Shown here piece by piece: positions 4,196-24,496 of a DNA stretch of 42,592 nt (positions are counted from its first letter, which is position 1; each line of letters opens with the position of its first letter). Below the pieces are notes generated by a model. The model was not told where the DNA came from and did not search any database. It saw only the letters and a program-made list of their open reading frames with translations. A program made the translations under genes and the position numbers. The DNA is from Solirubrobacteraceae bacterium (GTDB lineage Bacteria; Actinomycetota; Thermoleophilia; Solirubrobacterales; Solirubrobacteraceae), in assembly GCA_036403675.1 (NCBI GenBank), contig DASWQM010000196.1:1-42592 (forward strand). The letters are read 5' to 3'.

Positions 4196-4207
4196 TCGCC
4201 CGCGAGC

Positions 4208-5635
4208 TCAGAGCGCCGCCGGTGCCGGTACGACGAGCAGCCGCGGCTCGGTCATCTCCTCCATCGCGAAGCTCACGCCCTCGCGGCCGGAGCCGGAGTC
4301 GCGGACACCGCCGTAGGGTTGCTGCACCGCGCGGAAGAACGGCGCCTCGTTGACGACGACCGCCCCCGCCTCGATCGAGGCGAAGGCGGCCATCGCAGCC
4401 CCGAGATCACGCGTGAAGATCGCCGCCTGCAGCCCGTAACGAGTGGCGTTCGCAAGCCGGATGCCCTCCGCGAGGTCGTCGTAGCGGTCGATGCAGGCGA
4501 CCGGCCCGAAGACCTCCTCCCGCCAGCAGCGCGCGCCGTGAGGGACGTTCTCGATCACCGTCGCCTCGTGGAAGCGCCCGTAGCCGTCGCCCCCGAGCAG
4601 GACGTCGGCGCCGCCGGCGCGCGCCTCCCCCACCCACTCCGCGACGCGCGCCACCTCCGCCGCGGAGATCATCGGCGGCATCTCGGTGCTCTCCTGGAGC
4701 GGGTCGCCGGGCCGCAGCCGCCGCGCCCGCGCCACGAACGCGTCGAGGAAGTCGTCGGCGACCGCCCGCGCGACGAGGATCCGCTGCGCCGAGATGCAGA
4801 CCTGACCCGCGTACGCGAACGCGCCGAACGTCAGCCGGTCGGCGGCGAGCTCCACGTCGGCGTCGGGCTCGACGAGGACGGCCGCGTTGCCGCCGAGCTC
4901 GAGCGTCACCTTCTTGCGCGCGTTGGCGGCCTTCAGTGGCCAGCCGACGGCGTCCGAGCCCGTGAACGTGATCCCGCGCACGCGCGGGTCGGCGGCGATC
5001 CGCGACGCCCGCTGCCCGCCGACCGCCAGCACGCCGATCGCGCCGTCGGGCCAGTCGTCCTCGGCGACCAGCGCGGCGAGCGCAAGCGCCGACAGCGGCG
5101 TCTGCGAGGCCGGCTTGACGAGCACCGGGTTGCCCGCCGCCAGCGCCGGCGCGACCTTGTGCGCCACGAGGTTCAACGGGAAGTTGAACGGCGTGATCGC
5201 CAGCACCGGCCCGATCGGGAAGCGCTGCAGCAGCCCGGCGCGGTTGCCGAGGCCCGGCTCGGTGTCGAACGGCAGCCAGCGTCCCTCCATCCGCTTGGCC
5301 TGCTCGCCCGCCCAGCGGAAGACGTACATCGCCCGGGTCGCCTCGCCGCGCGCCTCGCGGATCGGCTTGCCCGCCTCCAGCGAGATCGTCCGGGCGAGCT
5401 CCTCGACCCGCTCCCCGATCCGCGCGGACGCCGCCAGCAGACGCTCGGAGCGCTCCCACGCCGGCATCGCCGCGACCAGCGGGGCCGCGGCGGCGGCAGC
5501 GTCGAGCGCGGCGTCCACGGCCGCCTCGGAGGGAACGGCAGCCTCGCCGACGACCGAGCCGTCGTAGGGGCTGCGGACCTCGAGGCGCTCTCCGACCGCG
5601 CGCAGCGCGCCGGCGGTGTCCGGGCGGGCGGCCAC
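4208..5635 (-). CDS. NAD(P)-dependent aldehyde dehydrogenase
   Basis: I chose the GTG at 5635, 2 nt after the upstream stop, giving 475 aa. The catalytic motifs LELGGNA (Glu) and GQVCISAQR (Cys) are present. The 634-aa track ORF overlaps the upstream gene. Confidence 0.85.
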   Translation of the reverse strand: MAARPDTAGALRAVGERLEVRSPYDGSVVGEAAVPSEAAVDAALDAAAAAAPLVAAMPAWERSERLLAASARIGERVEELARTISLEAGKPIREARGEATRAMYVFRWAGEQAKRMEGRWLPFDTEPGLGNRAGLLQRFPIGPVLAITPFNFPLNLVAHKVAPALAAGNPVLVKPASQTPLSALALAALVAEDDWPDGAIGVLAVGGQRASRIAADPRVRGITFTGSDAVGWPLKAANARKKVTLELGGNAAVLVEPDADVELAADRLTFGAFAYAGQVCISAQRILVARAVADDFLDAFVARARRLRPGDPLQESTEMPPMISAAEVARVAEWVGEARAGGADVLLGGDGYGRFHEATVIENVPHGARCWREEVFGPVACIDRYDDLAEGIRLANATRYGLQAAIFTRDLGAAMAAFASIEAGAVVVNEAPFFRAVQQPYGGVRDSGSGREGVSFAMEEMTEPRLLVVPAPAAL

Positions 5636-5637
5636 GA

Positions 5638-6774
5638 CTACCCGGCCAGCGCGGCCCGCGGCGCCGTCCCCTCCTTGATCTCCTCGCGCACGATCGCCGC
5701 GCCGTCGACGAGCGCGCGCAGCTTGCTGGCGCCGATCATGCGCGGGAGGTTGATGAGGCCGCAGTCCGTCGAGAGCCCCAGGCGCTCGGCCGGCACGACC
5801 TCCAGGCAGCGGCGGATCCGCTCGGCGACGTCCTGCGCGGTCTCGGTGATCGTCGACTTCACGTCCACGACCCCGGCGACGAAGTCGCGGTCCCAGTTGT
5901 TGTCGACGAGCGGCTTGAGGTCGTCGACGCCCATGCGGGCGACCTCGTAGTTCAACGCGTCCATGTGCGCGTCGAGCGCCTGCGGGAAGATCGCCGCGGC
6001 GCGCTCGGGTGCGGCGGCGTCGGACGGGCGCTTGTCGAGCACCCAGGCGCCGAACTCCCGCTCTCCCTCGTCCGGGAAGTAGCCGGGCGTGCCGGAGTAG
6101 TTGCCCCAGCACGTGTGGACCCAGAACTGCACGCCCGGGACCTCGTCCACCGCGAGGTTGAAGGCCTCGACCTCCCAGTCGGACATGCCGTAGGGCCAGA
6201 CGAACTCGTCGAGCTGGATGATGTCGACGCCCTCGTCGGCGAGCTGCAGGAAGTCCTCGTGGAACGCCTTTGCGATCGCGCGGGCGAGGTCGCGGTTGGA
6301 GTTGTAGAACGTGTCGTTGGACGCGAGCGTCAGCACCTGGATGCCGTTGTAGGAGACCTTCACCGGCTTGCGCGTCGCCTTGCGCACGGCCCGCAGCGTG
6401 GCGACGTGGAACGGGTGCAGGCGGCGCACCTCGCCCGTGACCGTCGGCGCGAACAGCGTCGAGTAGATCGGCAGGCCGATCGGCGGACCGGACATCTGGT
6501 AGCCGGCCATCCGCTCGTAGTAGTGGTAGAGGATCTGGCCGTAGGGGCTGTCGCCGCCATACACCTTGCCATCGGAGATGACGTCGATCCCGGCGGCCTC
6601 CTGGTCATGGACGATCGCGGCGACGGCATCCTCGAACGCCTCGCGAGAGATCGAGTCGTAGACGAACTCCCCCTTCGGGAACTGGGCGAAGGCGTGGCCG
6701 TCGTACCAGCGTGGGTTGGGGTAGTTGCCGACCATTGTGGTGGGCAGCAGGATGTCCTGATTGCCGATGCGCAT
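5638..6774 (-). CDS. etnE: MetE-family zinc alkyltransferase, best read as epoxyalkane:coenzyme M transferase (EaCoMT, XecA/EtnE-like)
   Basis: 378 aa, the size of a single MetE C-terminal-type domain. It has a His-x-Cys...Cys zinc pattern (WVHTCWGN and STDCGL). It also has the blocks NYPNPRWYD (6700-6726) and VKSTITETA, which I recall as the conserved EaCoMT blocks. The CoM gene context supports the call. Confidence 0.75.
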   Translation of the reverse strand: MRIGNQDILLPTTMVGNYPNPRWYDGHAFAQFPKGEFVYDSISREAFEDAVAAIVHDQEAAGIDVISDGKVYGGDSPYGQILYHYYERMAGYQMSGPPIGLPIYSTLFAPTVTGEVRRLHPFHVATLRAVRKATRKPVKVSYNGIQVLTLASNDTFYNSNRDLARAIAKAFHEDFLQLADEGVDIIQLDEFVWPYGMSDWEVEAFNLAVDEVPGVQFWVHTCWGNYSGTPGYFPDEGEREFGAWVLDKRPSDAAAPERAAAIFPQALDAHMDALNYEVARMGVDDLKPLVDNNWDRDFVAGVVDVKSTITETAQDVAERIRRCLEVVPAERLGLSTDCGLINLPRMIGASKLRALVDGAAIVREEIKEGTAPRAALAG

Positions 6775-6847
6775 CGCGAAAAACTCCTCCTCGCCTTCGA
6801 ACGTGGCAGCTGCAGGGTGACGCTAGATCCGGGGGCGACGCGGTTCA

Positions 6848-8953
6848 CTATCCCCCGACGAGCATTCCGGCGGGCGCGGTTGGCGCTGGGGGAGCAGGCG
6901 CGCCGACGATCCGCACGTCGACGGCCACGCTGCCGCGCGGCCCGGCGAGCACCGGGTTGAGATCGAGCTCGGCGATCCCGTCAACGCCGGCGATGAGCCG
7001 CGACGCGGCGGCGACTGTGGCCGCCAGCGCGCCGAGGTCTGCCGGCGGCCCGCCACGGGCCCCGGTCAGCAGCCCGATGCCCCGCAGGGACTCGATCGCC
7101 TCCAGCGCCTGCGCCTCGCTGACGGGCGCCAGGCGGAAGGCGACGTCCTGCAGCAGCTCGACGAAGACGCCGCCGAAGCCGACCATGACGACGGGACCGA
7201 GCGCCGGGTCGCGCAGCGCGCCGACGACCATCTCGGTGCCGCTCACCATCGGCTGGACCAGCACATCGGCCTGCGGGTCGAGTGCCAGCAGCGCAGCGGC
7301 GGCGGCGCGCACGGCGGCGGCGTCGCCGAGCCCGAGCTGCACACCGCCGGCGTCGGACTTGTGCACGTGCGCGCCGCCGGCGAGCTTCACCGCGACCGGC
7401 AAGCCGATCCGCGCGGCCGCCGCGGCGGCGTCGTCGGCGTCCGAGCAGACCGCCTGCGGCGGCACGGCGATTCCGAACGCCGCGGCGAGGCGGGCGGCGT
7501 CGCCGGGCGCCAGCAGCCCCGCCCCGACGGCTGGCAGATCGTCCGAGACGGCGGCGGGCGCCGCCTGCCGCGCGCGCCCGCGCACCTGCCCGTGCCGCCA
7601 GGCGAGCGCAGCGGCGCGCGCGGTGCGCTGCGGCCAGTCGAATGTGGGCACGCGCGCGTCGTGCAGGAGGTCGGCGTTGGGGCGCGCCTGCGCCGGCGCG
7701 ACCCAGCAGACGTAGACCGGGATGTCGAAGCCGCCGGCGTGCAGCCGCGCCGTCGCATCGCGCACCGCCGCCGCGACGGCGGGGTCCATCGCCGACCGCT
7801 GGAGCAGGACCGGCACGACGACGTCGACCTCGCCCGAGCGCGCGAGGAGCTCGATGGCGAGCGGGTAGAGATCCGCGAAGCGCGCCCACGCGGTCGTCAC
7901 GTCGACGGGGTTGCGGGCGCTGCCGTATCCCGGCAGCACGTCGGCGAGCTCACGCCGGAGGTCCTGCGACAGCTCGGGGACCTCCAGGCCCTGCTCGCTG
8001 AGCAGGTCCGCGAGCTCGACGCCGGTGCCGCCCGAGTTCGTCACGATCCCGACGCGCGGCCCGCGCGGCACGGGCTGCCAGTCCAGCGCCCGCGCGGCGT
8101 CGATCATCTCCAGGCCGCTGTCGGCGACGACGACGCCCGCCTGCTCGAGCGCCGCCCGCCAGATCACGGCATCGCCGGCGAGCGCGGCGGTGTGCGACAG
8201 CGCCGCGCGCGCGCCCGCGCCGGTGCGGCCGGTCTTCGTCACGAGCACCGGCTTGCGCGCCGTGACCTCGATCGCGGCCTCGCAGAAGCCGCGTGCGCCC
8301 GCGACGGACTCGACGAAGAAGCACGCGACGCTCGTCTGCTCGTCGGCGCCGAGATGGGCGAGCAGCTCGGCGTCCGTGACGTCGGCCTTGTTGCCGGCGG
8401 CGTAGACCTTCGCAAAGCCCATCCGCTGCTCGATCCCGAGCATGTACACCGCCATGCCGTAGGCACCCGATTGCGTGACGAGCGAGATCCCGCCGGCGTG
8501 CTCGGCCGTGCCGGCGGCCATCGAGGCGTTCAGTCCGGTGGCGCAGTTCTGCACGCCGAGGCAGTTCGGCCCGACGATCCGCACGCCGCCGCGGCGCGCC
8601 GCCGCGACCACCTGCTCCTGCAGCTCGGCGCCCTCTGTCCCCGTCTCCGCGAAGCCGCCCGACAGCACGACGACCGCGCCCGCGCCCACGGCGACGGCAT
8701 CGTCGACGACCGCCGGCACCGCGGCGGCCGGGACGGCGGCGACGACGAGGTCGACGCCGCCCGGCACGTCGCGCAGCCGGGCGTATGCGCGCAGGCCGCC
8801 GACCACCTCGCGGCGCGTGCTGACCGGGACGACGTCACCGGCGAACGCCTCGAGGTTGCGCATGACCGTCGTGCCGAGCTTGCCCGGCTCGTCGGAGGCG
8901 CCGACGACCGCGACGCGGGCGGGATCGAAGACCGCTCGCAGCCCGTGACTCAT
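6848..8953 (-). CDS. ADP-forming acyl-CoA synthetase (fused CoA-binding / succinyl-CoA-synthetase-like / ATP-grasp)
   Basis: The ATG at 8953 overlaps the upstream stop (ATGA). 701 aa, with the N-terminus VAVVGASDEPGKLG...IVGPNCLG and a C-terminal ATP-grasp region. The 835-aa track ORF is an over-extension. Confidence 0.85.
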   Translation of the reverse strand: MSHGLRAVFDPARVAVVGASDEPGKLGTTVMRNLEAFAGDVVPVSTRREVVGGLRAYARLRDVPGGVDLVVAAVPAAAVPAVVDDAVAVGAGAVVVLSGGFAETGTEGAELQEQVVAAARRGGVRIVGPNCLGVQNCATGLNASMAAGTAEHAGGISLVTQSGAYGMAVYMLGIEQRMGFAKVYAAGNKADVTDAELLAHLGADEQTSVACFFVESVAGARGFCEAAIEVTARKPVLVTKTGRTGAGARAALSHTAALAGDAVIWRAALEQAGVVVADSGLEMIDAARALDWQPVPRGPRVGIVTNSGGTGVELADLLSEQGLEVPELSQDLRRELADVLPGYGSARNPVDVTTAWARFADLYPLAIELLARSGEVDVVVPVLLQRSAMDPAVAAAVRDATARLHAGGFDIPVYVCWVAPAQARPNADLLHDARVPTFDWPQRTARAAALAWRHGQVRGRARQAAPAAVSDDLPAVGAGLLAPGDAARLAAAFGIAVPPQAVCSDADDAAAAAARIGLPVAVKLAGGAHVHKSDAGGVQLGLGDAAAVRAAAAALLALDPQADVLVQPMVSGTEMVVGALRDPALGPVVMVGFGGVFVELLQDVAFRLAPVSEAQALEAIESLRGIGLLTGARGGPPADLGALAATVAAASRLIAGVDGIAELDLNPVLAGPRGSVAVDVRIVGAPAPPAPTAPAGMLVGG

Positions 8954-9795
8954 GCGCAGCACGGACAGGAGGCGTGGTGGGCCGACCGGCTGAAGCGGCG
9001 CTCCAGCTCGCGCGGGTGGAACTCCGCGCGCCGCACGCCCAGGCGGTCGACCGAGCGCACGACCGCGAGCTCCTCGGCGCGGGGCGGTGCGACGGCCCGC
9101 AGGTCGCGGGCGACGTCGAGCTCGAAGCCGGTGGCGGCCAGCACGTGGTCGAGCTGGACGTCGGGGAACAGCTCGCGCAGCCGCAGGCGCCCGTCGGGGA
9201 AGTCGAAGACGCCGAGCTCGGTCACCATCGCGCCCGGGCCGCCGCCCGCCAGGCCGAGCTCCTTGCGCGTGCCCAGCGACGTCCGGTGGCCGAGATCGGT
9301 GATGAAGTCGCAGTCCGCGACGAGGGCCCGGCCGGAACGGTGGCGGGTCGTCCACAGCGTCAGCTCGCGGACGGTCGCCGAGAGGTTGCAGCCGCCGCCG
9401 CCGCCGCCGAGCTTGACCCGCGGCCGCGGCAGCCCCCCGACGGCGGTGACGTTCGTGTTGCCGTGGGGGTCGATCTGCGCGCCCGACAGGAACATCCGGT
9501 CAAGCTGGCCGCGCGCGGCCAGGTCGAAGAGCTCCTCGAAGCGCAGGATGTGGTCGGCGCCGCGCAGCAGCGCCCAGTCGTTGGACGTCGCCGGGATGAA
9601 CGCCGGCTCGGGGTCGAGCGCGTACGTCGATCCCTCGACGAGGACCATGTGCGGCGCGTGCGTGCGCTTGGCGACGTACATCGCCACCTGGGCGCACGGG
9701 CTGCCGAAGCCGTGGAAGACGATCTCGCCGTCGCGGATCGTGCGTGCGAGCGCGATGCAGAACCACTCGTCGATCGTGAACTCGACCGGCGTCAT
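8950..9795 (-). CDS. Family I CoA-transferase, subunit B (glutaconate/3-oxoadipate CoA-transferase beta-like)
   Basis: ATG at 9795, 281 aa: MTPVEFTIDEWFCIALARTI...MFLSGAQIDPHGNTNVT...GGGGGGCNL, which is typical of beta subunits. Confidence 0.8.
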   Translation of the reverse strand: MTPVEFTIDEWFCIALARTIRDGEIVFHGFGSPCAQVAMYVAKRTHAPHMVLVEGSTYALDPEPAFIPATSNDWALLRGADHILRFEELFDLAARGQLDRMFLSGAQIDPHGNTNVTAVGGLPRPRVKLGGGGGGCNLSATVRELTLWTTRHRSGRALVADCDFITDLGHRTSLGTRKELGLAGGGPGAMVTELGVFDFPDGRLRLRELFPDVQLDHVLAATGFELDVARDLRAVAPPRAEELAVVRSVDRLGVRRAEFHPRELERRFSRSAHHASCPCCA

Positions 9796-9850
9796 CGCGA
9801 GGACCGACCTCGCGAGTCGACGGGAGCGACGGTCGGGCGATGGCGCGCTG

Positions 9851-10774
9851 TCATGCCGACGCGAGCTCCATCCAGCGCTCGGTGGAGTCCTTCCACTCGC
9901 ACAGCCCCCGCAGGCGCTCGTCGCCGACGGCATCCAGGTACGCCGCCTCGCCGTCGCCGGTCACGTAGCGCGCGAGGTAGTCGCTGACGCCGTCGTCGCT
10001 GCCGGCGGCATCGACCCATTCGCGCAGATGCGCCCGGTCGTAGGCGTACTGCGGATAGCACGAGGTCGGGTGGGCGCCGAGCGGCGCCTCGACGACGGCG
10101 TCGACGAGGAACGACGGCAGCACGATGCCGGCCTCGGCGACCTCGTCGGCGGGCGCCAGCCGCTCGACGGTGACGATGAGCTGGCGGCTCGCGTGCGCGA
10201 AGCGCTCGTCGAGCACGAACGGGCGGCGCAGGTGGACGTTGCCGCGCCGGTCGGCGCTGAGGCCGTGGATGAGCGCGACGTCCGGCGCCAGGGCCGGCAC
10301 GGCGACGAGCCGCTGGCCCGTGAAGGGGCATGTGATCTCGCCGTACTCGGGGTGCAGCGCGAGGATCCCGGTGCCCGCGACGCCGCGCACCGGCATGAAC
10401 GGCAACCCGTACTCGGCCGCGCGCAGCTGCTGCAGCAGCGTGTAGCAGCAGGTCTCCCGGACCGCGATCAAGCCCAGCTCGGCGGCGCGGCGGTACGCGG
10501 GCGCCAGCCCGAGATCCTGCTCGAAGCCGACATAGCTCTGCTCGACCGCAGCCACCGCGCCGGCCCCGACGAGCAGGTCGACGTCGATCCCGTGGGCCGA
10601 GCCCACGAGGCGCAGGTCGCGGCGTTCCTGCCGGACGAGCTCCCGTACGAGCGCCATCGGCTCGCGGTAGGAGAGCGCGCCCCCGAGCGCGACGGTGTCG
10701 CCGTCGCGCACGAGCGCGATCGCATCGGCCAGGGTGCGCCGCTTGTCGGGCAGCATCCGCGCGCGCATCATCAC
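9851..10774 (-). CDS. Family I CoA-transferase, subunit A
   Basis: 307 aa, with ...LADAIALVRDGDTVALGG... and the rest of the alpha-subunit layout. Candidate starts GTG 10774, ATG 10771 and ATG 10768 overlap the upstream TGA (10771-10773). Confidence 0.8.
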   Translation of the reverse strand: MMMRARMLPDKRRTLADAIALVRDGDTVALGGALSYREPMALVRELVRQERRDLRLVGSAHGIDVDLLVGAGAVAAVEQSYVGFEQDLGLAPAYRRAAELGLIAVRETCCYTLLQQLRAAEYGLPFMPVRGVAGTGILALHPEYGEITCPFTGQRLVAVPALAPDVALIHGLSADRRGNVHLRRPFVLDERFAHASRQLIVTVERLAPADEVAEAGIVLPSFLVDAVVEAPLGAHPTSCYPQYAYDRAHLREWVDAAGSDDGVSDYLARYVTGDGEAAYLDAVGDERLRGLCEWKDSTERWMELASA

Positions 10775-11541
10775 TGCGCCGTCATGCCGCCGTCGGCGGC
10801 GTGGATCGAGCCGGTCAGGAAGGCGGCGTCGTCGCTGACGAGAAAGAGGGCGACGCGGGCGATCTCCTCAGGCGCCCCGAGTCGCCCGATCGGGTACTTC
10901 TCGACCGTCATCGCGATCCCGCGGTCGAGGTCGCCGTTGCCGCGCTCGGTGATCATCGTCTCCATCAGCGGTGTGAGCACCGTTCCCGGGCAGACGCAGT
11001 TGACGCGGATGCCGCGCGGTGCGAGGTCGAGCGCCATCGCGCGCGTCAGCGACACGACCGCGCCCTTGGCGGCGCAGTAGGCCGCGAAGCGGCGGATGCC
11101 GACCAGCGCCGCGACGGAGCCCTGGTTGACGATCGCGCCGCCGCCGTTGCGCTCCATCTCGGCGACGGCGTACTTCGAGCACAGCCACGTGCCCTTGACG
11201 TTGACGTCGAAGCAGCGGTCCCAGTCCTCCGCGCTGACGTCGACGACGTCCCCCGTGGCGTCCACGCCCGCGTTGTTGTAGAGCACGTCGAGCCGTCCCC
11301 AGGCGTCGACGGGCGCGCCGACGATCGCCCGCGCGCCGTCGTCGGAGCCGACGTCGCCGACGACGGCAAGCGCCTCGCCGCCGGACTGCGCGATCTCGTC
11401 GGCGACCTGCTCGGCGGCCTCCGCGCGCACGTCGGCGACGGCCACGCGGGCGCCCTCGGCCGCAAACAGCCGCGCCGCCGCGGCACCGATCCCCGAGCCG
11501 GCCCCGGTCACGATCGCCACTCTTCCGTCGAGGCGCCCCAC
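10771..11541 (-). CDS. Short-chain dehydrogenase/reductase (SDR)
   Basis: TGAGSGIG cofactor motif, NNAG, and catalytic YCAAK. I prefer the GTG at 11541 (VGRLDGRVAIVTGAG), which lies 10 nt after the upstream stop. The ATG at 11631 would overlap the upstream gene by 80 nt. Confidence 0.8.
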   Translation of the reverse strand: MGRLDGRVAIVTGAGSGIGAAAARLFAAEGARVAVADVRAEAAEQVADEIAQSGGEALAVVGDVGSDDGARAIVGAPVDAWGRLDVLYNNAGVDATGDVVDVSAEDWDRCFDVNVKGTWLCSKYAVAEMERNGGGAIVNQGSVAALVGIRRFAAYCAAKGAVVSLTRAMALDLAPRGIRVNCVCPGTVLTPLMETMITERGNGDLDRGIAMTVEKYPIGRLGAPEEIARVALFLVSDDAAFLTGSIHAADGGMTAQ

Positions 11542-11551: not shown

Positions 11552-13123
11552 CTAGTTCGGTCCCGCCGCGCCGTGATGGGCTGCGGGAGACAAAGATCCG
11601 TCCGGACCTTGTCCGCCGTTGCCGACGACACGGGCGCGGGCGCGCTCCAGCAGCGCCTCCTCCGCCCTCGCCAGCGCCTCGCGCCGCTGCGCGACGGAGG
11701 CCGCGAGGCCCGCCGCCCCAGCGCGGTCGGCGTCGAGCATCGCCTCCATCGGAGCCTCGGCCGCCCCGCCGGTGACGGTCCGCGTGGCGATCGCGGCGCG
11801 CGGGTTCAGCGCATCGGCGATGAGCGCGGGCGAGATCGTCAGCGACCGCCCGAGCACTTCCTGCGCGGCGCCGTCGAGCGCCTGCGCGTCGAGCGCCGCC
11901 GGTCCCGCGCCGCGCTCGATCGCGACGGCGACGGCACGCCCGACGACGCGGTAGCAGGCGCGGTAGTCCAGGCCGCTCGCCAGCATGACGGCGTCGGCGA
12001 GGTCCGCGGCGCCGGCAAAGCCCTCGTACAGCGGCCGCGCGAGCGCCGGCACGTCGAGCTCGAGGTGCTCGACGACGGCCGCCGCGAGGCTCACGGCGCC
12101 GGCCGCGAGCGTCACGGACTCGGCGCAGTCGCGGTAGGCGTAGAGCAGGTTGTCGGTGCGACCCGACGGCGTGCGCTGCGTCGCGGCCAGGCCGGCGGCG
12201 CGCCCGATGAGCGTGCCGGCGGCGCCGCGGACGACCGCCAGCGCGTACGGGTTGCGCTTCTGCGGCATGAGCGCGCTGGCGCGGCAGTGCTCGGCGGCGA
12301 GGCGGATGAAGCCGAACTGCTCGCTGGCGTAGATCTCGAGGTCCTCGGCCAGGCGGCTGGCGGTCGTCGCCGCCAGCGCGGCGTGGGAGACGAGTTCGAC
12401 GAGGCCGTCCGCCTGCCACATCGCGTCGCGCGTGTGGGTGATGACCGCGTCGAAGCCGAGGTCGCGCGCGAGAGCCCGGCGGTCGACGGGGACGCGCGAG
12501 CCGTTGACGCCGCCGGCGCCCGCGGGGCTCGCGTTGACCCAGTCGAAGTCGCGCCGCAGCCGCTCGCCGTCGCGCAGCGCGGGCGCGGCGAACGACAGCA
12601 GCCAGTGGCCGGCGGTCGTCGGCTGCGCGACCTGCAAATAGGTGAAGTCGGGCATCAGCGTCCCGACGTGACGCGCGGCCTGCTCGACGAGCGCCGCTGC
12701 GAGCCGCGCGACCGCCTCCTCGAGGTCCAGCACGAGCGCCCGCAGGCCGATCCGGAAGGCGATCCGCCCAGCCTCCCGCCGCGGCCTGCCGGCCGCCAGC
12801 CAGCCGCCGGCCGCGCCGATGCGCTGCTCGAGCCAGCGCTCGCGCAGGTTGTAGAGGTCGCCGTAGCGGGCGTCGGCGAGCGTCGCCGGATCGCGTTCGC
12901 GCAGGTCCAGCAGCGCGGCCAGCAGAACCTGCTCCTGGTCGGCGGGAACCACCCCGTGCTCGCCGAGTGACAGGACGTGCGCGATGTCGGCCAGGTCCAT
13001 GCCGGCGGCCAGCAGCTCGCTGTCGGCCAGCTCGCGCTGGTAGCCGGCGGCAACGAGCTCGGGCGCGGGGCCGGCGCCGATCCGCCCGGTCGCGCCGAGG
13101 TAGCCCTCGGGCAGCTCGCTCAC
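11552..13123 (-). CDS. Aspartase/fumarase-superfamily lyase, argininosuccinate-lyase-like (candidate XcbC/XcbD-type CoM biosynthesis enzyme)
   Basis: The GTG at 13123 overlaps the upstream stop (GTGA). 523 aa, with the superfamily signature SALMPQKRNP. The 959-aa track ORF is an artefact. Confidence 0.8.
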   Translation of the reverse strand: MSELPEGYLGATGRIGAGPAPELVAAGYQRELADSELLAAGMDLADIAHVLSLGEHGVVPADQEQVLLAALLDLRERDPATLADARYGDLYNLRERWLEQRIGAAGGWLAAGRPRREAGRIAFRIGLRALVLDLEEAVARLAAALVEQAARHVGTLMPDFTYLQVAQPTTAGHWLLSFAAPALRDGERLRRDFDWVNASPAGAGGVNGSRVPVDRRALARDLGFDAVITHTRDAMWQADGLVELVSHAALAATTASRLAEDLEIYASEQFGFIRLAAEHCRASALMPQKRNPYALAVVRGAAGTLIGRAAGLAATQRTPSGRTDNLLYAYRDCAESVTLAAGAVSLAAAVVEHLELDVPALARPLYEGFAGAADLADAVMLASGLDYRACYRVVGRAVAVAIERGAGPAALDAQALDGAAQEVLGRSLTISPALIADALNPRAAIATRTVTGGAAEAPMEAMLDADRAGAAGLAASVAQRREALARAEEALLERARARVVGNGGQGPDGSLSPAAHHGAAGPN

Positions 13124-14466
13124 GGCACGCCGCCCTCCGAGAGCACGCGGTCGACGAGCGCGATCGCCGGGCTCGCCGCCGTGACCGGGTCCAGCAGCCG
13201 GTCGAGCTCCTCCGCCGTCAGCGCGGCGGCGATCGCCGGCTCGGCCGTCAGCGCCTCGCGCAGCGTGCGGCCTTCGGCCTGGCCGCGCATCGAGGCGGCG
13301 TAGACGAGCTCGTGCGCGGTGTGCTTCCCGAGGCGGTCGGTCAGCGCGCGCATGACCGGCTCGGACTGCACCCAGCCACCCTGCGCGGCGACGTTGGCCG
13401 CCATCCGCTCGGCGTCGACCTCCAGGCCCTCGACGAGGTCGATCCCGAAGTGCAGCGCGGCGGCGGTCGCCACGCAGGCCTCGGGCAGGTAGGCCCACTC
13501 GGCCTTCCAAGCGGCGCCGTCGCGCTCGTGCTCGTGGACGACCCCCTCCAGCGCGAGCCCCGCGGCGCCGCGGACGACGCGCCAGAGCGTGCCGAGATGC
13601 TCGGACAGCTCGGGGTTGCGCTTGTGCGGCATCGTGATCGAGCCGACGAGCCCGCTGCGCGTGGCCTCGGCGAGCTCGCCGATCTCCGGTCGCTGCAGCT
13701 GGTAGACCTCGCGCCCGATCTTCGCCAGCGTCCCCGTGACGAGCGCCAGCAGGGTGAGGAACTCCGCGACCCGGTCGCGCGCCGTCAGCCACGTGACGTC
13801 GGGCGCCGCCAGCCCGAGGCGCTCGCACATCCTCCCCTGCAGCTCGAGCCCCGCGTCGCCCCAGAACGAGCACGTGCCGACGGCGCCCGCGAGCTGGCCG
13901 ACGGCCAGCCGCGGGCGGGCCTGGGCGACGCGCTCGCGATGGCGGCGCACCTCGGCGACCCAGACCGCAGCCTTGAAGCCGAACGTCACCGGCAGCCCCG
14001 GCTGCCCGTGCGTGCGGCCCAGCACGACGGTCGTGCGGTGCTCGCGCGCGAGCACCAGCAGCGCCCGCTCCAGGCGCTGCAGGTCGGTGGCCGTGTCGTC
14101 CAGGACGTCGCGCATGACGATGCCGGTCCAGCTGTCGGTGACATCCTGAACCGTCGCGCCCCAGTAGACCCACTCGCGGGCCGCGGGCGACAGGCGCGCC
14201 TGCCACGCGCGGATGAGCCCGAGCGTCGAGTGGCCGCTCGCGCGCGTGCCGGCGGCGACCTCCGCGAGGTCGAAGCCGTCCACGTCGGCGGTCGCCACGA
14301 TCTCCTCCGCGGCCGCCCGCGGCACGAGGCCGAGGTCGGCCTGCGCGGCGGCGAGCGCCGCCAGGACGTCGAGCCAGGCCTGCAGGCGGCCGCGCTCGCC
14401 GAAGCGCTCGCGCGCCGCGGGCGTGCTCCACAGGTGCTCGTAGACCACCGAGTCGATGATGTGCAT
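13120..14466 (-). CDS. Aspartase/fumarase-superfamily lyase, adenylosuccinate-lyase / carboxymuconate-cycloisomerase-like (candidate XcbC/XcbD-type)
   Basis: ATG at 14466 (MHIIDSVVYEHLW), 448 aa, with the signature GSITMPHKRNP. Confidence 0.8.
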   Translation of the reverse strand: MHIIDSVVYEHLWSTPAARERFGERGRLQAWLDVLAALAAAQADLGLVPRAAAEEIVATADVDGFDLAEVAAGTRASGHSTLGLIRAWQARLSPAAREWVYWGATVQDVTDSWTGIVMRDVLDDTATDLQRLERALLVLAREHRTTVVLGRTHGQPGLPVTFGFKAAVWVAEVRRHRERVAQARPRLAVGQLAGAVGTCSFWGDAGLELQGRMCERLGLAAPDVTWLTARDRVAEFLTLLALVTGTLAKIGREVYQLQRPEIGELAEATRSGLVGSITMPHKRNPELSEHLGTLWRVVRGAAGLALEGVVHEHERDGAAWKAEWAYLPEACVATAAALHFGIDLVEGLEVDAERMAANVAAQGGWVQSEPVMRALTDRLGKHTAHELVYAASMRGQAEGRTLREALTAEPAIAAALTAEELDRLLDPVTAASPAIALVDRVLSEGGVP

Positions 14467-14471: not shown

Positions 14472-15365
14472 TCACGACGTCGGCACCGGCGTCCAGGCCG
14501 GGACGAGGAGGTGCAGCGCCTCGCGGACCTCCTCGAGCGTCGCGCCCCACGGCACGACCACGAGCGCGCCGTCGGACTCGATGCCGCGCTCGCGCAGGCA
14601 GCACTTCACGAGCGTCGGCTCCGTGCGCTCGTCCGCGCGCACGCGCGGGCACAGCTCCACCCGGGCCGCGGGCTCGGCGCCGTACAGCTCGCTGTGGATC
14701 TGGCGCGAGCGCTCGCAGCCGAGCAGCGTCCAGCCACCGTCCGGTGGCTCGGCCGGGCCGGAATCAAGGAAGTCGACCGGGCCGGCGAGCTCGAGCCCGC
14801 CGCAGCGGCAGGGCAGCAGCCAGTGCTCGGTCGCGACCTCCGCCGCGATCTCGTTGAGGTCGATCGCCTCCAGCTCGAGCGCGACCGGGTCGAGGTCCTC
14901 GTCGTACTCGAGCACGCGCCGGGCCATGTCGAGCAGCTTCGGCGGCGCGGGCGGGACGACCTCGACGACACGGATCCGGACCGGCGCCGGCTCGACGATG
15001 AGGTTGACGTGCTGGTTGCGCCCCTCGACGACGTAGACGCGCGCCGCCTGACCGCTGGCCGCTGCCGCGCGTGCCATCTGCGTGGCGTTGCCCGTGTCGA
15101 TCTGCGGGTCGCGCACGAACGCGGTCTCCTCGGGCCCCGAGACCCAGTGGATCTCGCTGACGGGCCAGAACAGGGCGTCGCCGGCGGGCTCCTTGTCGAC
15201 CGTCACGACCGCATGGCCCTCGTCGCCCTCGGCGATCAGCACCTCCGTGCGCCGGTATACGCGCCGGTTGACGAGGTGCTCGCGAACGGCGTCCTCGGTC
15301 AGCGCCACGCCGAGGCGCTGCACGCTCACGCCGCGGTACGGCCGGCAGATCCAGTTCGGGCGCAT
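14472..15365 (-). CDS. Hypothetical protein with a Cys-rich C-terminal half; no family recognised
   Basis: 297 aa from the ATG at 15365, which shares its A with the upstream TGA. Third-position GC is high. The gene is embedded in the operon, with a 5-nt gap to the next start. Cys motifs are LLPCRCGG, LLGCERS, ELCPR and VKCCL. Confidence 0.65.
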   Translation of the reverse strand: MRPNWICRPYRGVSVQRLGVALTEDAVREHLVNRRVYRRTEVLIAEGDEGHAVVTVDKEPAGDALFWPVSEIHWVSGPEETAFVRDPQIDTGNATQMARAAAASGQAARVYVVEGRNQHVNLIVEPAPVRIRVVEVVPPAPPKLLDMARRVLEYDEDLDPVALELEAIDLNEIAAEVATEHWLLPCRCGGLELAGPVDFLDSGPAEPPDGGWTLLGCERSRQIHSELYGAEPAARVELCPRVRADERTEPTLVKCCLRERGIESDGALVVVPWGATLEEVREALHLLVPAWTPVPTS

Positions 15366-16093: not shown

Positions 16094-17866
16094 CTACGTC
16101 TCCTGGAGCTCGAGCGTGCGCAGGATGCTGATCGCCAGCTGCGCCTCGAAGCGATCGCGCTGGCGTGCGAAGTCGAGCTTCGCGAGGCCCTGGACCTTGT
16201 CGAGCCGGTAGCGCACCGTCTTCGGATGCACGAACATCGCCGCCGCCGTGCGCTGGAGGTTGCAGTCGTTGGCGAGGAACGCCTCGATCGTGTGCGTCAG
16301 GTCGCTGGGATGGTCGCGGTCGTAGTCGAGCACCCCGCCGAGGACGCGGCGCGCGAACTCGCGCAGGTCGCCACGGTCGCCGGGGGCGAGCAGGAAGCGC
16401 ATGACGCCGAGCTCGTCGAGCACGGCGACGTGATGGCAGCCCACATCCGTCGGCGCCGCGTTGAGGGCGACCTGCGCCTGGGCGAGCGCCTCGGGCAGGT
16501 CGGCGATGTCGGCGGCGCACGCGCTCACCCCGGCCGCCACGTCGATCTCCGGGAAGCGCTCGCCGAGCCGGTCGACGACGGCCTCGACGCTGGCGCGCGG
16601 ATCGTCGGTGGCGGGCAGCAGCAGCGCGATGAGCGAGCCCCGCGCCGCCGCCAGCGCGGCCTCGCCGCCCTGCGCCGTCGCGGCCCGCTCGGCGACCTGG
16701 GCGAGCGACTCGCGCAGCGCCAGCTGCGGCAGCGCGCCATCGCTCGACGCGTGGCGCGGGCGCGCCTGCGCGCGGATGAGCGCCACCCGCACCTTCTCCG
16801 GCAGCTCGAGGCGCAGCGCGCGCGCCCAGACGAGCGCCTCGGCGACGTCGGCGATCTTGCCGTCGAGCAGGTCCCAGAGGAAGTCCCCGCGGACCCTCGT
16901 GCGAGCCTGTAGCACCGCGCGCTCGCGCGTGAGCTCCAGCGCGCACATGATCGTCGCCTGCTCGACGAGCACGACGTCGAGCGGCACGGGCGGGTGGCGC
17001 AGCGCGACGCCGAGGTAGCCGAGCCGCTCGCCCCCGGCGAAGACGTCGCGGACGAGCAGGCGGTCGTCGGCGACGGGCCGGGGCGCCGCGATGCGCGCCG
17101 CCATCCGCGACTGGAGCGCCAGCCCCGCGGCACCGCTGGCGGCCATCACGCGGCAGCCGGTGTCGAGCGTCGCGACGTCGGCATCCAGCAGCCGCGCGAC
17201 GCCGTCGACGAGATCGGTGAGCGCGACGTCCTCCAGCACGAGCCGCATGAGCTCGTCGTGGACCTCGGTGGCGCGCTGCAGGACCTCGTTCTGCGTCTCG
17301 AGCCGCTGGTTGACGATCTGCAGGCCGTCGACGGTGCGGCGCTGCGCCTCGTAGAGCCGCGCGTTCTCGACGGCGATCGCGGCGAGGTTGGCGAGCGTCG
17401 TCATCGCCTGCACGTCGGCGGCGACGTAGGCGTCGGGCTGTCGCCGCCAGCTCATCGCCACGCCGATCGCGCGGCCGCGCACGGCCATCGGCGCGCCGAG
17501 CGCCGCCCGCGTGCCGTCGGCCTGCGCGATGTCCGCGAAGTCGCGCGAGATCCGCTGGTCGGACTGGTAGTCGTCGACGCGCACCGGGCGCCCCTCCTCG
17601 AAGACCTTGCCGGCGACGCCCTGCCCGCGGCCGACGACGAGGCGCGCCGTCCCGACGGTGCGATGTCCCGTGCAGGCCTGCATCCGCAGCGTCTCGCCGG
17701 TCTCGTCGGCGAGCAGGATGCCGGCGATGTCGGCGTTCGTCGTCGCGACGACGGCGTTGAGGACCGACAGCAGCGTGGTGTCGAGCTCGAGCGAGCTGAG
17801 GATGTCGGCGGCGACGCGCCCGAAGGCGCCGAGGCGTCCGGCCTCCAGGGTTGCGACGGGACCCAT
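16094..17866 (-). CDS. GAF-domain / PucR-family transcriptional regulator
   Basis: 590 aa. The N-terminal region is GAF-like (LLSVLNAVVATTNADIAGILLADETGETLRMQA...GVAGKV). The C-terminal PucR helix-turn-helix (HTH) is NLQRTAAAMFVHPKTVRYRLDKV. The stop lies 3 nt before the next gene's start. Confidence 0.85.
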   Translation of the reverse strand: MGPVATLEAGRLGAFGRVAADILSSLELDTTLLSVLNAVVATTNADIAGILLADETGETLRMQACTGHRTVGTARLVVGRGQGVAGKVFEEGRPVRVDDYQSDQRISRDFADIAQADGTRAALGAPMAVRGRAIGVAMSWRRQPDAYVAADVQAMTTLANLAAIAVENARLYEAQRRTVDGLQIVNQRLETQNEVLQRATEVHDELMRLVLEDVALTDLVDGVARLLDADVATLDTGCRVMAASGAAGLALQSRMAARIAAPRPVADDRLLVRDVFAGGERLGYLGVALRHPPVPLDVVLVEQATIMCALELTRERAVLQARTRVRGDFLWDLLDGKIADVAEALVWARALRLELPEKVRVALIRAQARPRHASSDGALPQLALRESLAQVAERAATAQGGEAALAAARGSLIALLLPATDDPRASVEAVVDRLGERFPEIDVAAGVSACAADIADLPEALAQAQVALNAAPTDVGCHHVAVLDELGVMRFLLAPGDRGDLREFARRVLGGVLDYDRDHPSDLTHTIEAFLANDCNLQRTAAAMFVHPKTVRYRLDKVQGLAKLDFARQRDRFEAQLAISILRTLELQET

Positions 17867-19547: not shown

Positions 19548-20386
19548 GCTCCGACCACGCGCTCACCGGCGGGCAGATCGCCCGCTTCGCCATCAAGCGG
19601 CCCGGCGGCGCCACGCCGGGCTTCCTCGAGCTGCCCGACCGCACGGTCAAGCCGCGCGCCGCCGGCGTCACGCACGTGCTCGACAAGGGGCTGACGCTCG
19701 TGGAGCTCGACGGGCTGCTCGGCTCGGCCGGACCGCACATCGACTTCGTCAAGCTCGGCTGGGGCACGGCCTACGTCTCGGCCGACGTCTCGGCGAAGGT
19801 CGCCCACTGCGATCGCGCGAACGTCGGCGCGTGCCTCGGCGGCACGCTGCTGGAACTGGCCTGGGCGCAGGGGCGCATGGCGCAGTACGTGCACTGGGCG
19901 CACGGCATCGGCGTCTCCTGCGTCGAGGTCTCGAACGGCTCGGTCGGCATGTCCCCCGCCGAGAAGCGCCGGCTGATCCAGGAGCTCGCGGAGGAGTTCG
20001 AGGTCCTCGCCGAGGTCGGCTCCAAGCGGCCGGGACCGGTCGACGTGCGCAGCTGGTGCGACGAGCTGGCGCGCGACCTCGACGCCGGCGCGAGCTGGCT
20101 CGTCACCGAGGGACGCGAGAGCGGCACGGTCGGGCTGTTCGAGCCCAACGGAGACGTGCGCGTGGAGCTCGTGGACGCGATCGCCGCAGCCGTGCCGGTC
20201 GACCGGGTGATCTTCGAGGCGCCGCTGAAGGCGCAGCAGGCGGTCCTCATCCACCTCGTCGGCCCGAACGTCGGGCTCGGCAACATCGCTCCCGGGGAGG
20301 CGCTGTCGGTGGAGACGCTGCGGCGTGGCCTGCGAACCGACACGATCGACCTCGCGCTTCCCGAGCTCGACCGGCTGCCCGTCTAG
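19544..20386 (+). CDS. comA: (2R)-phospho-3-sulfolactate synthase (ComA / XcbB-like)
   Basis: 280 aa. The motifs HIDFVKLGWGTAYV, GGTLLE, VEVSNGS, EVGSK, DLDAGASWLVTEGRESG, IFEAPLKAQQ and VETLRRGLRTDT align with archaeal ComA. The TTG start overlaps the upstream TGA (TTGA). Confidence 0.9.
   Translation: MSSDHALTGGQIARFAIKRPGGATPGFLELPDRTVKPRAAGVTHVLDKGLTLVELDGLLGSAGPHIDFVKLGWGTAYVSADVSAKVAHCDRANVGACLGGTLLELAWAQGRMAQYVHWAHGIGVSCVEVSNGSVGMSPAEKRRLIQELAEEFEVLAEVGSKRPGPVDVRSWCDELARDLDAGASWLVTEGRESGTVGLFEPNGDVRVELVDAIAAAVPVDRVIFEAPLKAQQAVLIHLVGPNVGLGNIAPGEALSVETLRRGLRTDTIDLALPELDRLPV

Positions 20387-22974: not shown

Positions 22975-24496
<1,522 letters not shown>

What the first reader, a model, noticed from the sequence alone, without database searches (positions are those of the whole stretch)
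5638..6774. Stand-alone MetE-like gene with epoxyalkane:CoM transferase hallmarks at the distal end of the operon
The 378-aa product is a single-domain MetE/UroD-fold zinc alkyltransferase with an H-x-C...C metal pattern (VHTCWGN, STDCGL). It contains NYPNPRWYD and VKSTITETA. To my recollection these are the peptide blocks encoded by the degenerate PCR primers widely used to detect EaCoMT (etnE) genes. At the DNA level the first site, AACTACCCCAACCCACGCTGGTACGAC, differs from the remembered primer at about one position. In ethene and vinyl chloride degraders etnE directly precedes the monooxygenase genes. Here it is followed only by an aldehyde dehydrogenase gene.
Basis: partly seen in the sequence, partly recalled or inferred. 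Interest (0 to 1): 0.65.

Follow-up and report, generated by a model that had tools for sequence, protein, structure and literature searches.

The report
Epoxide:coenzyme M transferase gene, soil actinobacterium
The gene encodes a genuine relative of the zinc enzyme that attaches coenzyme M to small toxic epoxides such as ethylene oxide, and it sits in a full coenzyme M pathway cluster with no alkene-oxidising enzyme nearby, an arrangement that proved to be the usual one in soil actinobacterial genomes.

Summary
A 378-aa ORF lies at 5638-6774 on the minus strand and carries NYPNPRWYD, VHTCWGN, VKSTITETA and STDCGL. It is 72-76% identical to EtnE of Mycolicibacterium chubuense NBB4, Nocardioides JS614 and Rhodococcus B-276, and 50% identical to Xanthobacter Py2 XecA. 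Identity to MetE-like proteins is only about 30%. It falls inside the EaCoMT clade with 100% bootstrap.

It is the tenth of eleven co-directional genes: a PucR regulator, an R-HPCDH-like SDR, xcbA, xcbD, xcbC, a second SDR, two CoA-transferase subunits, an ADP-forming acyl-CoA synthetase, etnE and an ALDH. A 2-KPCC homologue that keeps the Phe-His carboxylase dyad, plus comA, are transcribed divergently. The host is an uncultured soil Solirubrobacteraceae, and the locus is chromosomal.

No SDIMO genes occur in the 42.6 kb window. That is typical: only 6 of 53 evaluable genomes have one within 10 kb of etnE.

The recalled primers check out. CoM-R2E matches NBB4 30/30 and the pair predicts an 891-bp product there. 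In this gene the forward site has 1 mismatch and the reverse site has 9 of 30, so standard PCR would probably miss it.

Verdict: a new member of a known family, of moderate interest. Side puzzles are a missing xcbE and a probable ATT start for the 2-KPCC gene.

The parts
5638..6774 (-). etnE/xecA-type epoxyalkane:coenzyme M transferase (EaCoMT) gene, 378 aa. Predicted Zn ligands are His220, Cys222, Glu277 and Cys338.
   Evidence: Translation. Pfam Meth_synt_2 only. 72-76% identity to JS614/NBB4 EtnE and 50% to Py2 XecA. 75% identity to the B-276 EaCoMT. Clade bootstrap 100. Motif columns. dN/dS 0.04-0.16.
6784..6790 (-). Shine-Dalgarno GGAGGAG, 9 nt upstream of the etnE ATG. It lies in a 73-nt gap after the acyl-CoA synthetase gene.
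   Evidence: Read from the sequence.
6700..6726 (-). Site homologous to primer CoM-F1L (encodes NYPNPRWYD). It has 1 mismatch to the recalled primer.
5833..5862 (-). Site homologous to primer CoM-R2E (encodes VKSTITETAQ). It has 9/30 mismatches, 4 of them within the 9 bases at the primer's 3' end. The predicted product is 894 bp.
4208..5635 (-). NAD(P)-dependent aldehyde dehydrogenase, the last gene of the operon. Its GTG start is 2 nt after the etnE stop.
   Evidence: Pfam Aldedh 9e-139. No NCBIfam equivalog is reached: lactaldehyde DH scores 401 against a cut-off of 650, and SafD 328 against 700. Orthologues downstream of etnE occur only in L009-L011.
6848..8953 (-). ADP-forming acyl-CoA synthetase (CoA-binding, succinyl-CoA-ligase-like and ATP-grasp domains).
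   Evidence: It is the conserved upstream neighbour of etnE in 45 of 80 loci.
8950..9933 (-). CoA-transferase subunit B (the start codon is uncertain: 9933 or 9795).
9851..10771 (-). CoA-transferase subunit A.
10771..11541 (-). Short-chain dehydrogenase SDR1. It is 62% identical to the SDR of the JS614 and NBB4 etn clusters and 47% to Py2 XecE.
11552..13123 (-). xcbC-like aspartase/fumarase-family enzyme (the phosphate-elimination step of bacterial CoM synthesis).
   Evidence: NCBIfam CoM_syn_XcbC scores 471 bits, below the 575 cut-off. Pfam Lyase_1 and ASL_C2.
13120..14466 (-). xcbD, 3-sulfopropionylcysteine synthase.
   Evidence: NCBIfam CoM_syn_XcbD scores 656 bits, above the 600 cut-off.
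14472..15365 (-). xcbA-family protein (DUF7714), the [2Fe-2S] reductase of the last step of CoM synthesis.
   Evidence: Pfam DUF7714 7e-82. NCBIfam XcbA_fam scores 350 against a cut-off of 150. Function is taken from PMC9457059.
15365..16090 (-). Short-chain dehydrogenase SDR2, 52% identical to Py2 XecD (R-hydroxypropyl-CoM dehydrogenase). The Arg residues at XecD positions 152 and 196 are kept.
   Evidence: That these two Arg bind the CoM sulfonate is from my own memory.
16094..17866 (-). GAF / PucR-family transcriptional regulator, the first gene of the co-directional block.
17997..19547 (+). [quoted passage not shown] The probable start is ATT at 17997, behind GAGGAGG.
   Evidence: 53% identity to Py2 2-KPCC. 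CPHQAC (C82/C87) and FLNPEH (the F501/H506 dyad) are conserved. The role of the dyad is from PMC8358701. Three independent assemblies give the same sequence.
19544..20386 (+). comA/xcbB, phosphosulfolactate synthase (first step of CoM synthesis).
   Evidence: Pfam ComA 4e-75.

Best explanation
The gene encodes an epoxyalkane:coenzyme M transferase (EaCoMT) of the actinobacterial EtnE type, in an uncultured soil Solirubrobacteraceae. By analogy with characterised family members, a zinc ion activates the thiol of coenzyme M. The ligands would be His220, Cys222 and Cys338, with Glu277 as the likely resting-state fourth ligand. The thiolate opens a short-chain epoxide ring (epoxyethane and/or epoxypropane) to give a 2-hydroxyalkyl-CoM thioether.

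The surrounding operon supplies the rest of the pathway. comA, xcbC, xcbD and xcbA make CoM. Two SDRs oxidise the hydroxyalkyl-CoM to the 2-keto or 2-oxo thioether. A 2-KPCC-type flavoenzyme with the carboxylase Phe-His dyad reductively cleaves the C-S bond, probably with carboxylation. The CoA-transferase and ADP-forming acyl-CoA synthetase pair activates the acid product. The translationally coupled ALDH oxidises an aldehyde intermediate; candidates are 2-oxoethyl-CoM, acetaldehyde and malonate semialdehyde.

Shown here: clade membership, metal-ligand and clade motifs, pathway gene content, purifying selection, and the presence of near-identical sequence in soil metatranscriptome assemblies, which cannot exclude carried-over DNA. 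Inferred: catalytic activity, substrate range, the order of the steps after the SDRs, and the role of the ALDH. The source of the epoxide is unresolved, because no alkene monooxygenase lies within the window.
For: Identity is 72-76% to EtnE of JS614, NBB4 and B-276 and 50% to Py2 XecA. The next best plasmid hit is 31%. The NJ tree puts the protein in the EaCoMT clade with bootstrap 100, separate from MetE-like paralogues. The identity histogram is bimodal. The blocks GNYPNPRW[YW]D, CWGN[YW] and DVKSTxTE are clade-specific, and H-x-C, E and C align with the MetE zinc ligands. The AF2 model (pLDDT 79) has the MetE catalytic-domain fold, with TM 0.75 to 3rpd. The 2-KPCC homologue keeps C82/C87 and F501/H506. 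SDR2 is 52% identical to XecD. The same ACS-to-EtnE junction occurs in 45 of 80 genomes. dN/dS is 0.04-0.16. The exact protein occurs in five soil metagenome contigs, and more than 20 soil runs hold the locus. Contigs of 150-250 nt at about 98% identity lie on etnE in three soil metatranscriptomes. A published precedent exists for a functional, ethylene-induced etnE/CoM cluster without an alkene monooxygenase (PMC11507031).
Against: No enzyme assay exists for this protein or for any member of its subclade. There is no solved EaCoMT structure to check the active site against; the best PDB hit is a MetE-like protein at about 26% identity. xcbE, the PLP enzyme needed for CoM synthesis in Xanthobacter, is absent from the window, so CoM supply is not assured. 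No monooxygenase that would make an epoxide is in the window. The xcbC-like gene falls below NCBIfam's cut-off. The metatranscriptome evidence consists of short contigs from assemblies that may contain DNA.
Confidence: 0.85

Rival explanations
1. Physiological-role variant A. The cluster serves epoxide scavenging or detoxification without a dedicated alkene monooxygenase. The epoxides would arise from co-oxidation by unrelated oxygenases or from the environment, as proposed for methanotrophs.
For: No SDIMO is found in 42.6 kb. Only 6 of 53 evaluable genomes have an SDIMO within 10 kb of etnE. The methanotroph precedent has an ethylene-induced EtnE and no alkene monooxygenase. The locus is chromosomal, has uniform GC and lies beside housekeeping genes.
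Against: Only 5.6 kb of sequence lies beyond the etnE end of the cluster. The rest of the genome is unseen. Other monooxygenase classes (CuMMO, P450, AlkB) were not searched for in related genomes.
Confidence: 0.45
2. Physiological-role variant B. This is a true alkene-assimilation pathway whose monooxygenase is encoded elsewhere in the genome, i.e. an unlinked etnABCD/amo equivalent.
For: The downstream pathway is complete, including a carboxylase-type 2-KPCC and CoA activation genes, which suggests carbon assimilation rather than detoxification alone. In Py2 the monooxygenase and xecA are in separate operons. Six related genomes do have an SDIMO adjacent to etnE.
Against: No monooxygenase is seen in the window or within 10 kb of etnE in the three closest relatives, L009-L011.
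Confidence: 0.35
3. The gene is a cobalamin-independent methionine synthase (MetE-type) or another thiol methyltransferase, as automatic annotation names its homologues.
For: The only Pfam hit is Meth_synt_2. Public sources name the homologues 'methionine synthase II'.
Against: All NCBIfam methionine-synthase equivalogs are far below cut-off, for example 186.7 against 406. Identity to MetE-like proteins is only 27-32%, against 72-76% to EtnE. The tree places it elsewhere. The operon is dedicated to CoM.
Confidence: 0.03
4. The pathway is a decaying remnant. Without xcbE the cell makes no CoM, so EtnE is non-functional.
For: xcbE is missing from the window and from L010 and L011, although it is present in L009. 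The 2-KPCC gene lacks a canonical start codon.
Against: All eleven operon ORFs are intact with a strong coding signature. etnE is under strong purifying selection across four genomes. The same xcbE-less layout is kept in three species-level genomes. Near-identical sequence occurs in soil metatranscriptome assemblies. A good SD plus ATT precedes the 2-KPCC gene, and the sequence is the same in independent assemblies. xcbE could lie elsewhere in the genome.
Confidence: 0.07

Closest known systems
EtnE of ethene/vinyl-chloride-assimilating actinobacteria (Mycolicibacterium chubuense NBB4, M. rhodesiae JS60, Nocardioides sp. JS614) and the EaCoMT of Rhodococcus rhodochrous B-276
   Same: 72-76% amino-acid identity over the full length, with the same length, zinc motif and clade-specific blocks. 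The same upstream module of SDR, two CoA-transferase subunits and an ADP-forming acyl-CoA synthetase is present. The same link to CoM biosynthesis genes exists.
   Different: Here etnE is followed by an ALDH rather than by etnABCD. The locus is chromosomal in a Thermoleophilia-class host rather than on a plasmid of Mycobacteriales or Propionibacteriales. The regulator is a GAF/PucR protein without a MEDS partner. xcbE is absent. The reverse-primer site has diverged at the DNA level.
XecA (2-hydroxypropyl-CoM lyase, epoxide carboxylase component I) of Xanthobacter autotrophicus Py2, together with XecC (2-KPCC) and XecD/XecE
   Same: 50% identity to XecA. Homologues of all four epoxide-carboxylase components are present: 2-KPCC at 53% with the Phe-His dyad, SDR2 at 52% to XecD and SDR1 at 47% to XecE. 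The xcb CoM genes are alongside.
   Different: The window protein belongs to the actinobacterial sub-clade, not the Py2 sub-clade. The cluster adds CoA-transferase and acyl-CoA synthetase genes, as in ethene-type clusters. The gene order differs.
etnE/CoM cluster of the methanotroph Methylohalobius crimeensis (PMC11507031)
   Same: It has an epoxide/CoM pathway cluster with a regulator but no alkene monooxygenase, and an aldehyde dehydrogenase is part of the cluster.
   Different: That EtnE is of the Py2 type (77% to Py2, 47% to JS60). Its host supplies epoxide through pMMO co-oxidation, and the cluster lies on a genomic island. Here the host is an actinobacterium with no known epoxide source and no compositional island.
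Single-domain MetE-like 'methionine synthase II' proteins (e.g. PDB 3rpd, and plasmid-borne genes of Pantoea and Acetobacter next to DUF1852)
   Same: The same TIM-barrel fold and the same H-x-C...E...C zinc site.
   Different: Only 26-31% identity. They lack the NYPNPRWYD and CWGNY blocks and the 225-256 insertion. They are not linked to CoM genes.

Membership tests
Epoxyalkane:coenzyme M transferase (EaCoMT; EtnE/XecA) | Single-domain protein of about 370 aa with the MetE catalytic-domain (Meth_synt_2) fold. | tested here: met
   Pfam Meth_synt_2 only. Full-length alignment to 3rpd. AF2 model TM 0.75 to 3rpd and 0.70 to the T. maritima MetE C-terminal domain.
Epoxyalkane:coenzyme M transferase (EaCoMT; EtnE/XecA) | His-X-Cys ... 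Cys zinc-binding motif. | tested here: met
   H220-T-C222 and C338 are invariant in 38 homologues. They align with the MetE zinc ligands, and E277 aligns with the MetE Glu ligand.
Epoxyalkane:coenzyme M transferase (EaCoMT; EtnE/XecA) | Groups phylogenetically with experimentally characterised EaCoMTs, to the exclusion of MetE-like and other paralogues. | tested here: met
   NJ tree with 100 bootstraps: the clade holding Py2 XecA, NBB4 EtnE, the B-276 EaCoMT and the window protein is supported 100/100, and the actinobacterial sub-clade 85/100. No maximum-likelihood tree was possible with the tools at hand.
Epoxyalkane:coenzyme M transferase (EaCoMT; EtnE/XecA) | Clade-specific conserved blocks that the diagnostic primers target (NYPNPRWYD; VKST[IV]TE[TS]A). 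| tested here: met
   NYPNPRWYD occurs in 82 of 84 clade genes. Paralogues have FPRPHWLQ or LPKPSW instead. At the DNA level the forward site has 1 mismatch and the reverse site 9/30.
Epoxyalkane:coenzyme M transferase (EaCoMT; EtnE/XecA) | Genomic association with CoM biosynthesis and with the downstream hydroxyalkyl-CoM enzymes. | tested here: met
   comA, xcbA, xcbD, an xcbC-like gene, two SDRs and a 2-KPCC homologue are in the same cluster. xcbE is missing.
Epoxyalkane:coenzyme M transferase (EaCoMT; EtnE/XecA) | CoM- and Zn-dependent ring opening of epoxyethane or epoxypropane. | not testable with these tools
   This requires an enzyme assay.
etnEABCD-type ethene/vinyl-chloride assimilation operon | etnE lies immediately upstream of, and is co-transcribed with, a four-component soluble di-iron alkene monooxygenase. 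| tested here: not met
   tblastn with NBB4 EtnABCD and Py2 XamoA finds nothing in the window, even at E = 10. The gene after etnE is an ALDH.
Cobalamin-independent methionine synthase (MetE / MetE-like) | Reaches the curated equivalog score, or clusters with MetE-type proteins. | tested here: not met
   The best NCBIfam methionine-synthase model scores 186.7 bits against a cut-off of 406. Identity to MetE-like proteins is 27-32%, and they fall outside the clade.
Methylcobamide:CoM methyltransferase (MtaA/MtbA, UroD family) | URO-D family domain, or close structural or sequence similarity to MtaA. | tested here: not met
   No URO-D Pfam hit. The M. mazei methyltransferase 4ay7 is only a distant structural match, with TM 0.52 and 11% identity.
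2-KPCC (for the neighbouring gene 17997-19547) | Redox-active Cys82/Cys87 pair, and a Phe501/His506 dyad replacing the His-Glu dyad of typical disulfide oxidoreductases. | tested here: met
   The alignment shows CPHQAC and ELFLNPEHF, matching the Py2 sequences CPHNAC and ELFLNPTHF. The definition of the dyad is from PMC8358701.

The most novel reading that the evidence does not exclude
A widespread, uncultured soil Solirubrobacteraceae lineage runs a monooxygenase-independent, CO2-fixing coenzyme M epoxide pathway. It also makes CoM without the canonical PLP enzyme XcbE, either by using another lyase or by a shortened route. That would make it part of a large, PCR-invisible soil sink for ethylene-derived epoxides.
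Probability: 0.2. Interest if true: 0.6.

Novelty: new member of a known kind. Interest (0 to 1): 0.38.

Why it matters
EaCoMT (etnE) is the standard functional marker for aerobic ethene and vinyl-chloride degraders at contaminated sites. CoM was long thought to be rare in bacteria.

This locus and the 80 related genomes surveyed show that etnE/CoM clusters are common in uncultured soil Actinomycetota, here a Thermoleophilia-class lineage. They are usually not linked to an alkene monooxygenase. Most of them also match the classical reverse primer poorly: only 3 of 84 genes have at most 2 mismatches to both primers. PCR and qPCR surveys therefore probably under-count this gene family, and the presence of etnE alone should not be read as alkene-assimilating capacity. 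None of this changes what kind of enzyme it is.

Tried and rejected
**Literature check of the primers.** Two full-text searches for the primer names and sequences and four look-ups by PMC id (PMC193758, PMC4959245, PMC2876445 and PMC6440738) did not yield the CoM-F1L or CoM-R2E sequences. I validated the recalled sequences against NBB4 etnE instead.

**Search for a monooxygenase or xcbE in the window.** tblastn with NBB4 EtnA-D, Py2 XamoA and the JS614 PLP enzyme found nothing, even at E = 10. Pfam scans of 40 ORFs found no oxygenase and no PLP enzyme.

**Promoter and terminator scan of 3900-7100.** No sites were found, so it gave no information on operon boundaries in this high-GC organism.

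**Genomic-island hypothesis.** GC is uniform at 0.69-0.76, and no transposase or integrase domains were seen. I rejected it.

**Assembly error as the cause of the missing start codon in the 2-KPCC gene.** Three independent soil assemblies agree with the window and show no indels. I rejected it.

**ALDH orthology.** The window ALDH is not an orthologue of the ALDHs near the JS614 or Py2 clusters. There is no hit to JS614 and only a 23% partial hit to Py2.

**Bootstrapping.** The first attempt with Biopython's distance calculator timed out. I redid it with a numpy Kimura-distance NJ.

**Transcription evidence.** It is weak. Most metatranscriptome matches are fragments of about 35 nt. Only a few contigs of 150-250 nt lie fully on etnE, and DNA carry-over cannot be excluded.
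Full report
**1. Observation**

The ORF at 5638-6774 is real, but it runs on the minus strand. It encodes 378 aa. NYPNPRWYD is at residue 17, VHTCWGN at 219, VKSTITETA at 305 and STDCGL at 335. Its codon-position GC of 0.66/0.42/0.97 is the signature of a true coding frame in this 73% GC window. GGAGGAG lies 9 nt before the ATG. The stop is followed after 2 nt by the GTG start of a 475-aa aldehyde dehydrogenase.

**2. What the protein is**

Pfam sees only the cobalamin-independent methionine synthase catalytic domain. Every NCBIfam methionine-synthase model is far below its cut-off, for example 186.7 bits against 406.

tblastn against plasmids gives these identities:
- 76% to the etnE region of Nocardioides JS614;
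- 73% to the gene directly upstream of etnABCD in Mycolicibacterium chubuense NBB4;
- 50% to Xanthobacter Py2 2-hydroxypropyl-CoM lyase (XecA).

After that there is a sharp fall to 31% or less for about 400 MetE-like genes. The large protein database lists the Rhodococcus rhodochrous B-276 epoxyalkane:CoM transferase at 75%.

Across 109 homologous segments collected from 91 loci, identities are bimodal. They are at least 47% within the EaCoMT group and at most 32% outside it. A neighbour-joining tree with Kimura distances and 100 bootstraps gives these supports:
- 100/100 for the clade holding the window protein with XecA, NBB4 EtnE and the B-276 enzyme;
- 85/100 for the actinobacterial sub-clade;
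- 100/100 for a tight subgroup of the window protein with L009-L011.

The blocks GNYPNPRW[YW]D, CWGN[YW] and DVKSTxTE are specific to this clade. The H-x-C, E and C positions align with the zinc ligands of MetE.

An AlphaFold model (pLDDT 79, pTM 0.84) matches the single-domain MetE-like structure 3rpd at TM 0.75. It matches MtaA and UroD only remotely, at about TM 0.5. The one low-confidence stretch, 225-256, is an insertion after the H-x-C motif that MetE-like proteins lack. No EaCoMT structure was found in the PDB copy.

**3. Primers**

The paper library did not yield the published primer sequences. The recalled sequences could be tested on data instead. In NBB4 etnE, CoM-R2E matches 30/30, CoM-F1L matches 26/27, and the predicted product is 891 bp. 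A 30-mer cannot match exactly by chance, so the recollection is sound.

In the window the forward site (6700-6726, minus strand) has 1 mismatch. The reverse site (5833-5862, minus strand) has 9 of 30 mismatches, including a Ser codon switch from AGC to TCG, and 4 of them fall within the 9 bases at the primer's 3' end. The predicted product is 894 bp.

Among 84 clade genes, NYPNPRWYD is encoded in 82. Only 3 genes have at most 2 mismatches to both primers.

**4. Context**

The window is chromosomal. uvrC, rapZ and the gap-pgk-tpi genes flank the cluster. UvrC is 90-92% identical to Solirubrobacteraceae MAG proteins. GC is uniform, and no mobile-element genes were seen.

etnE is the tenth of eleven co-directional, tightly spaced minus-strand genes:

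| Coordinates | Gene |
|---|---|
| 16094-17866 | GAF/PucR regulator |
| 15365-16090 | SDR2 |
| 14472-15365 | xcbA family |
| 13120-14466 | xcbD (above the NCBIfam cut-off) |
| 11552-13123 | xcbC-like (below the cut-off) |
| 10771-11541 | SDR1 |
| 9851-10771 and 8950-9933 | CoA-transferase subunits A and B |
| 6848-8953 | ADP-forming acyl-CoA synthetase |
| 5638-6774 | etnE |
| 4208-5635 | ALDH |

Two genes are transcribed divergently: a 2-KPCC homologue and comA (19544-20386). The 2-KPCC homologue is 53% identical to the Py2 enzyme. It keeps the redox-active CPHQAC pair and the FLNPEH motif. That motif holds the Phe501/His506 dyad, which in 2-KPCC replaces the His-Glu dyad of ordinary disulfide reductases and directs carboxylation (PMC8358701). 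SDR2 is 52% identical to XecD and keeps the Arg residues at XecD positions 152 and 196. That those two residues bind the CoM sulfonate is from my own memory.

The locus therefore encodes homologues of all four Xanthobacter epoxide-carboxylase components, four of the five bacterial CoM-synthesis enzymes (PMC9457059), and the CoA-transferase/synthetase pair typical of ethene-type clusters.

**5. The missing monooxygenase**

No SDIMO component is detectable anywhere in the window, even at E = 10. A scan of one genome per species returned 80 loci. Of the 53 with at least 8 kb on both sides of etnE, only 6 carry an SDIMO within the flank.

The conserved junction is acyl-CoA synthetase to etnE, found in 45 of 80 loci. 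The gene after etnE is most often comA (35 loci). It is an ALDH only in the window's own subgroup, L009-L011. The etnE-etnABCD arrangement of the cultured degraders is the minority.

A published precedent exists in methanotrophs. There, an etnE/CoM cluster without an alkene monooxygenase is induced by ethylene and is thought to detoxify epoxyethane (PMC11507031).

**6. Signs of function**

dN/dS for etnE is 0.04-0.16 among the four genomes of the subgroup, and 0.22-0.39 for the ALDH. The exact protein is found on five soil metagenome contigs, and the locus is held by more than 20 soil metagenome runs. Three soil metatranscriptome assemblies contain contigs of 150-250 nt at about 98% identity that lie wholly on etnE. 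That last point is weak support, because such assemblies can contain DNA.

**7. Mechanism proposed**

Zinc-activated CoM thiolate attacks the epoxide to give 2-hydroxyalkyl-CoM. This is established for the family and inferred here. The SDRs oxidise that product. The 2-KPCC-type enzyme cleaves the thioether reductively and, judging by its dyad, carboxylates the enolate: acetoacetate from a C3 substrate, malonate semialdehyde from a C2 substrate. The CoA-transferase and synthetase activate the acid. The translationally coupled ALDH handles an aldehyde intermediate.

The ALDH's best family matches are all below their cut-offs: lactaldehyde dehydrogenase and sulfoacetaldehyde dehydrogenase SafD. 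Its substrate is therefore open.

Whether the epoxide comes from an unlinked alkene monooxygenase or from co-oxidation or environmental sources cannot be decided from this window. I rate the two at 0.35 and 0.45.

**8. Verdict**

This is a new member of a well-known enzyme family, found in a new host lineage and in the commonest genomic arrangement, which has so far been little discussed. Interest is moderate to low, at 0.38. The practical point is that the standard etnE primers probably miss this gene and most genome-derived EaCoMT genes. Minor puzzles are the missing xcbE and the apparent ATT start of the 2-KPCC gene.

Noticed in passing
window 17877-18165 (gene 17997-19547, + strand): The 2-KPCC homologue has no in-frame ATG, GTG or TTG between the upstream stop (17877-17879) and the ATG at 18165. 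Homology to Py2 2-KPCC nevertheless begins at 18006, and the FAD-binding GGGAAG motif lies upstream of 18165. A strong GAGGAGG (17985-17991) followed by ATT at 17997 suggests a non-canonical ATT start. Three independent soil assemblies show the same sequence without indels.
   Followed up: partly
window 13120-13123 (xcbD/xcbC junction); L009 2642-3541: xcbE, the PLP-dependent enzyme required for bacterial CoM synthesis in Xanthobacter, is absent from the whole window and from the ±10 kb held around etnE in relatives L010 and L011. It sits between xcbD and xcbC in L009 and in most other loci. In the window, xcbD and xcbC overlap by 4 nt, so the junction is clean.
   Followed up: partly
window 22246-27458 (- strand): A TauE/SafE-type sulfite or sulfonate permease (22246-22974) and a cofactor-independent phosphoglycerate mutase (22971-24500) are appended to the gap-pgk-tpi operon, about 2 kb from comA. 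PEP and sulfite are the ComA substrates, so this may be a supply arrangement, or it may be coincidence.
   Followed up: no
L054, L055, L056, L060, L063, L066, L074, L080, L084, L088 (upstream of the CoA-transferase genes): Many related clusters carry a second MetE-like paralogue with about 30% identity to EtnE (FPRPHWLQG, HxCYG), immediately upstream of the CoA-transferase genes. These paralogues form their own clade, and their function is unknown. None is present in the window.
   Followed up: partly
L046 1755-2891 and L071 1789-2889 (Pseudonocardia MAGs): These genomes carry two EaCoMT genes in one locus: an actinobacterial EtnE type (72% identity to the window protein) and a Xanthobacter XecA type (47-48%). 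This suggests two substrate specificities or a recent transfer.
   Followed up: no
L001 15001-16112 (Nocardioides JS614 pNOCA01): The JS614 copy hit here is split into two tblastn pieces, is annotated only as a 627-nt hypothetical protein, and has no monooxygenase after it. It appears to be a disrupted second etnE allele. The record holds a second matching place that I did not fetch.
   Followed up: no
window 3121-4131 (+), 20490-20984 (-), 21082-21684 (-), 21719-22189 (-), 28784-29167 (+), 32148-32687 (+), 36082-36756 (-): These ORFs have a coding-like GC3 signature but no Pfam match. The first converges on the end of the etnE operon. Three of them lie between comA and the TauE gene.
   Followed up: no
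window 5638-6774, residues 225-256 of the protein: There is an insertion after the H-x-C zinc motif that is specific to the EaCoMT clade and absent from MetE-like structures. AlphaFold models it with pLDDT below 50. It may form a lid or substrate-binding element.
   Followed up: partly
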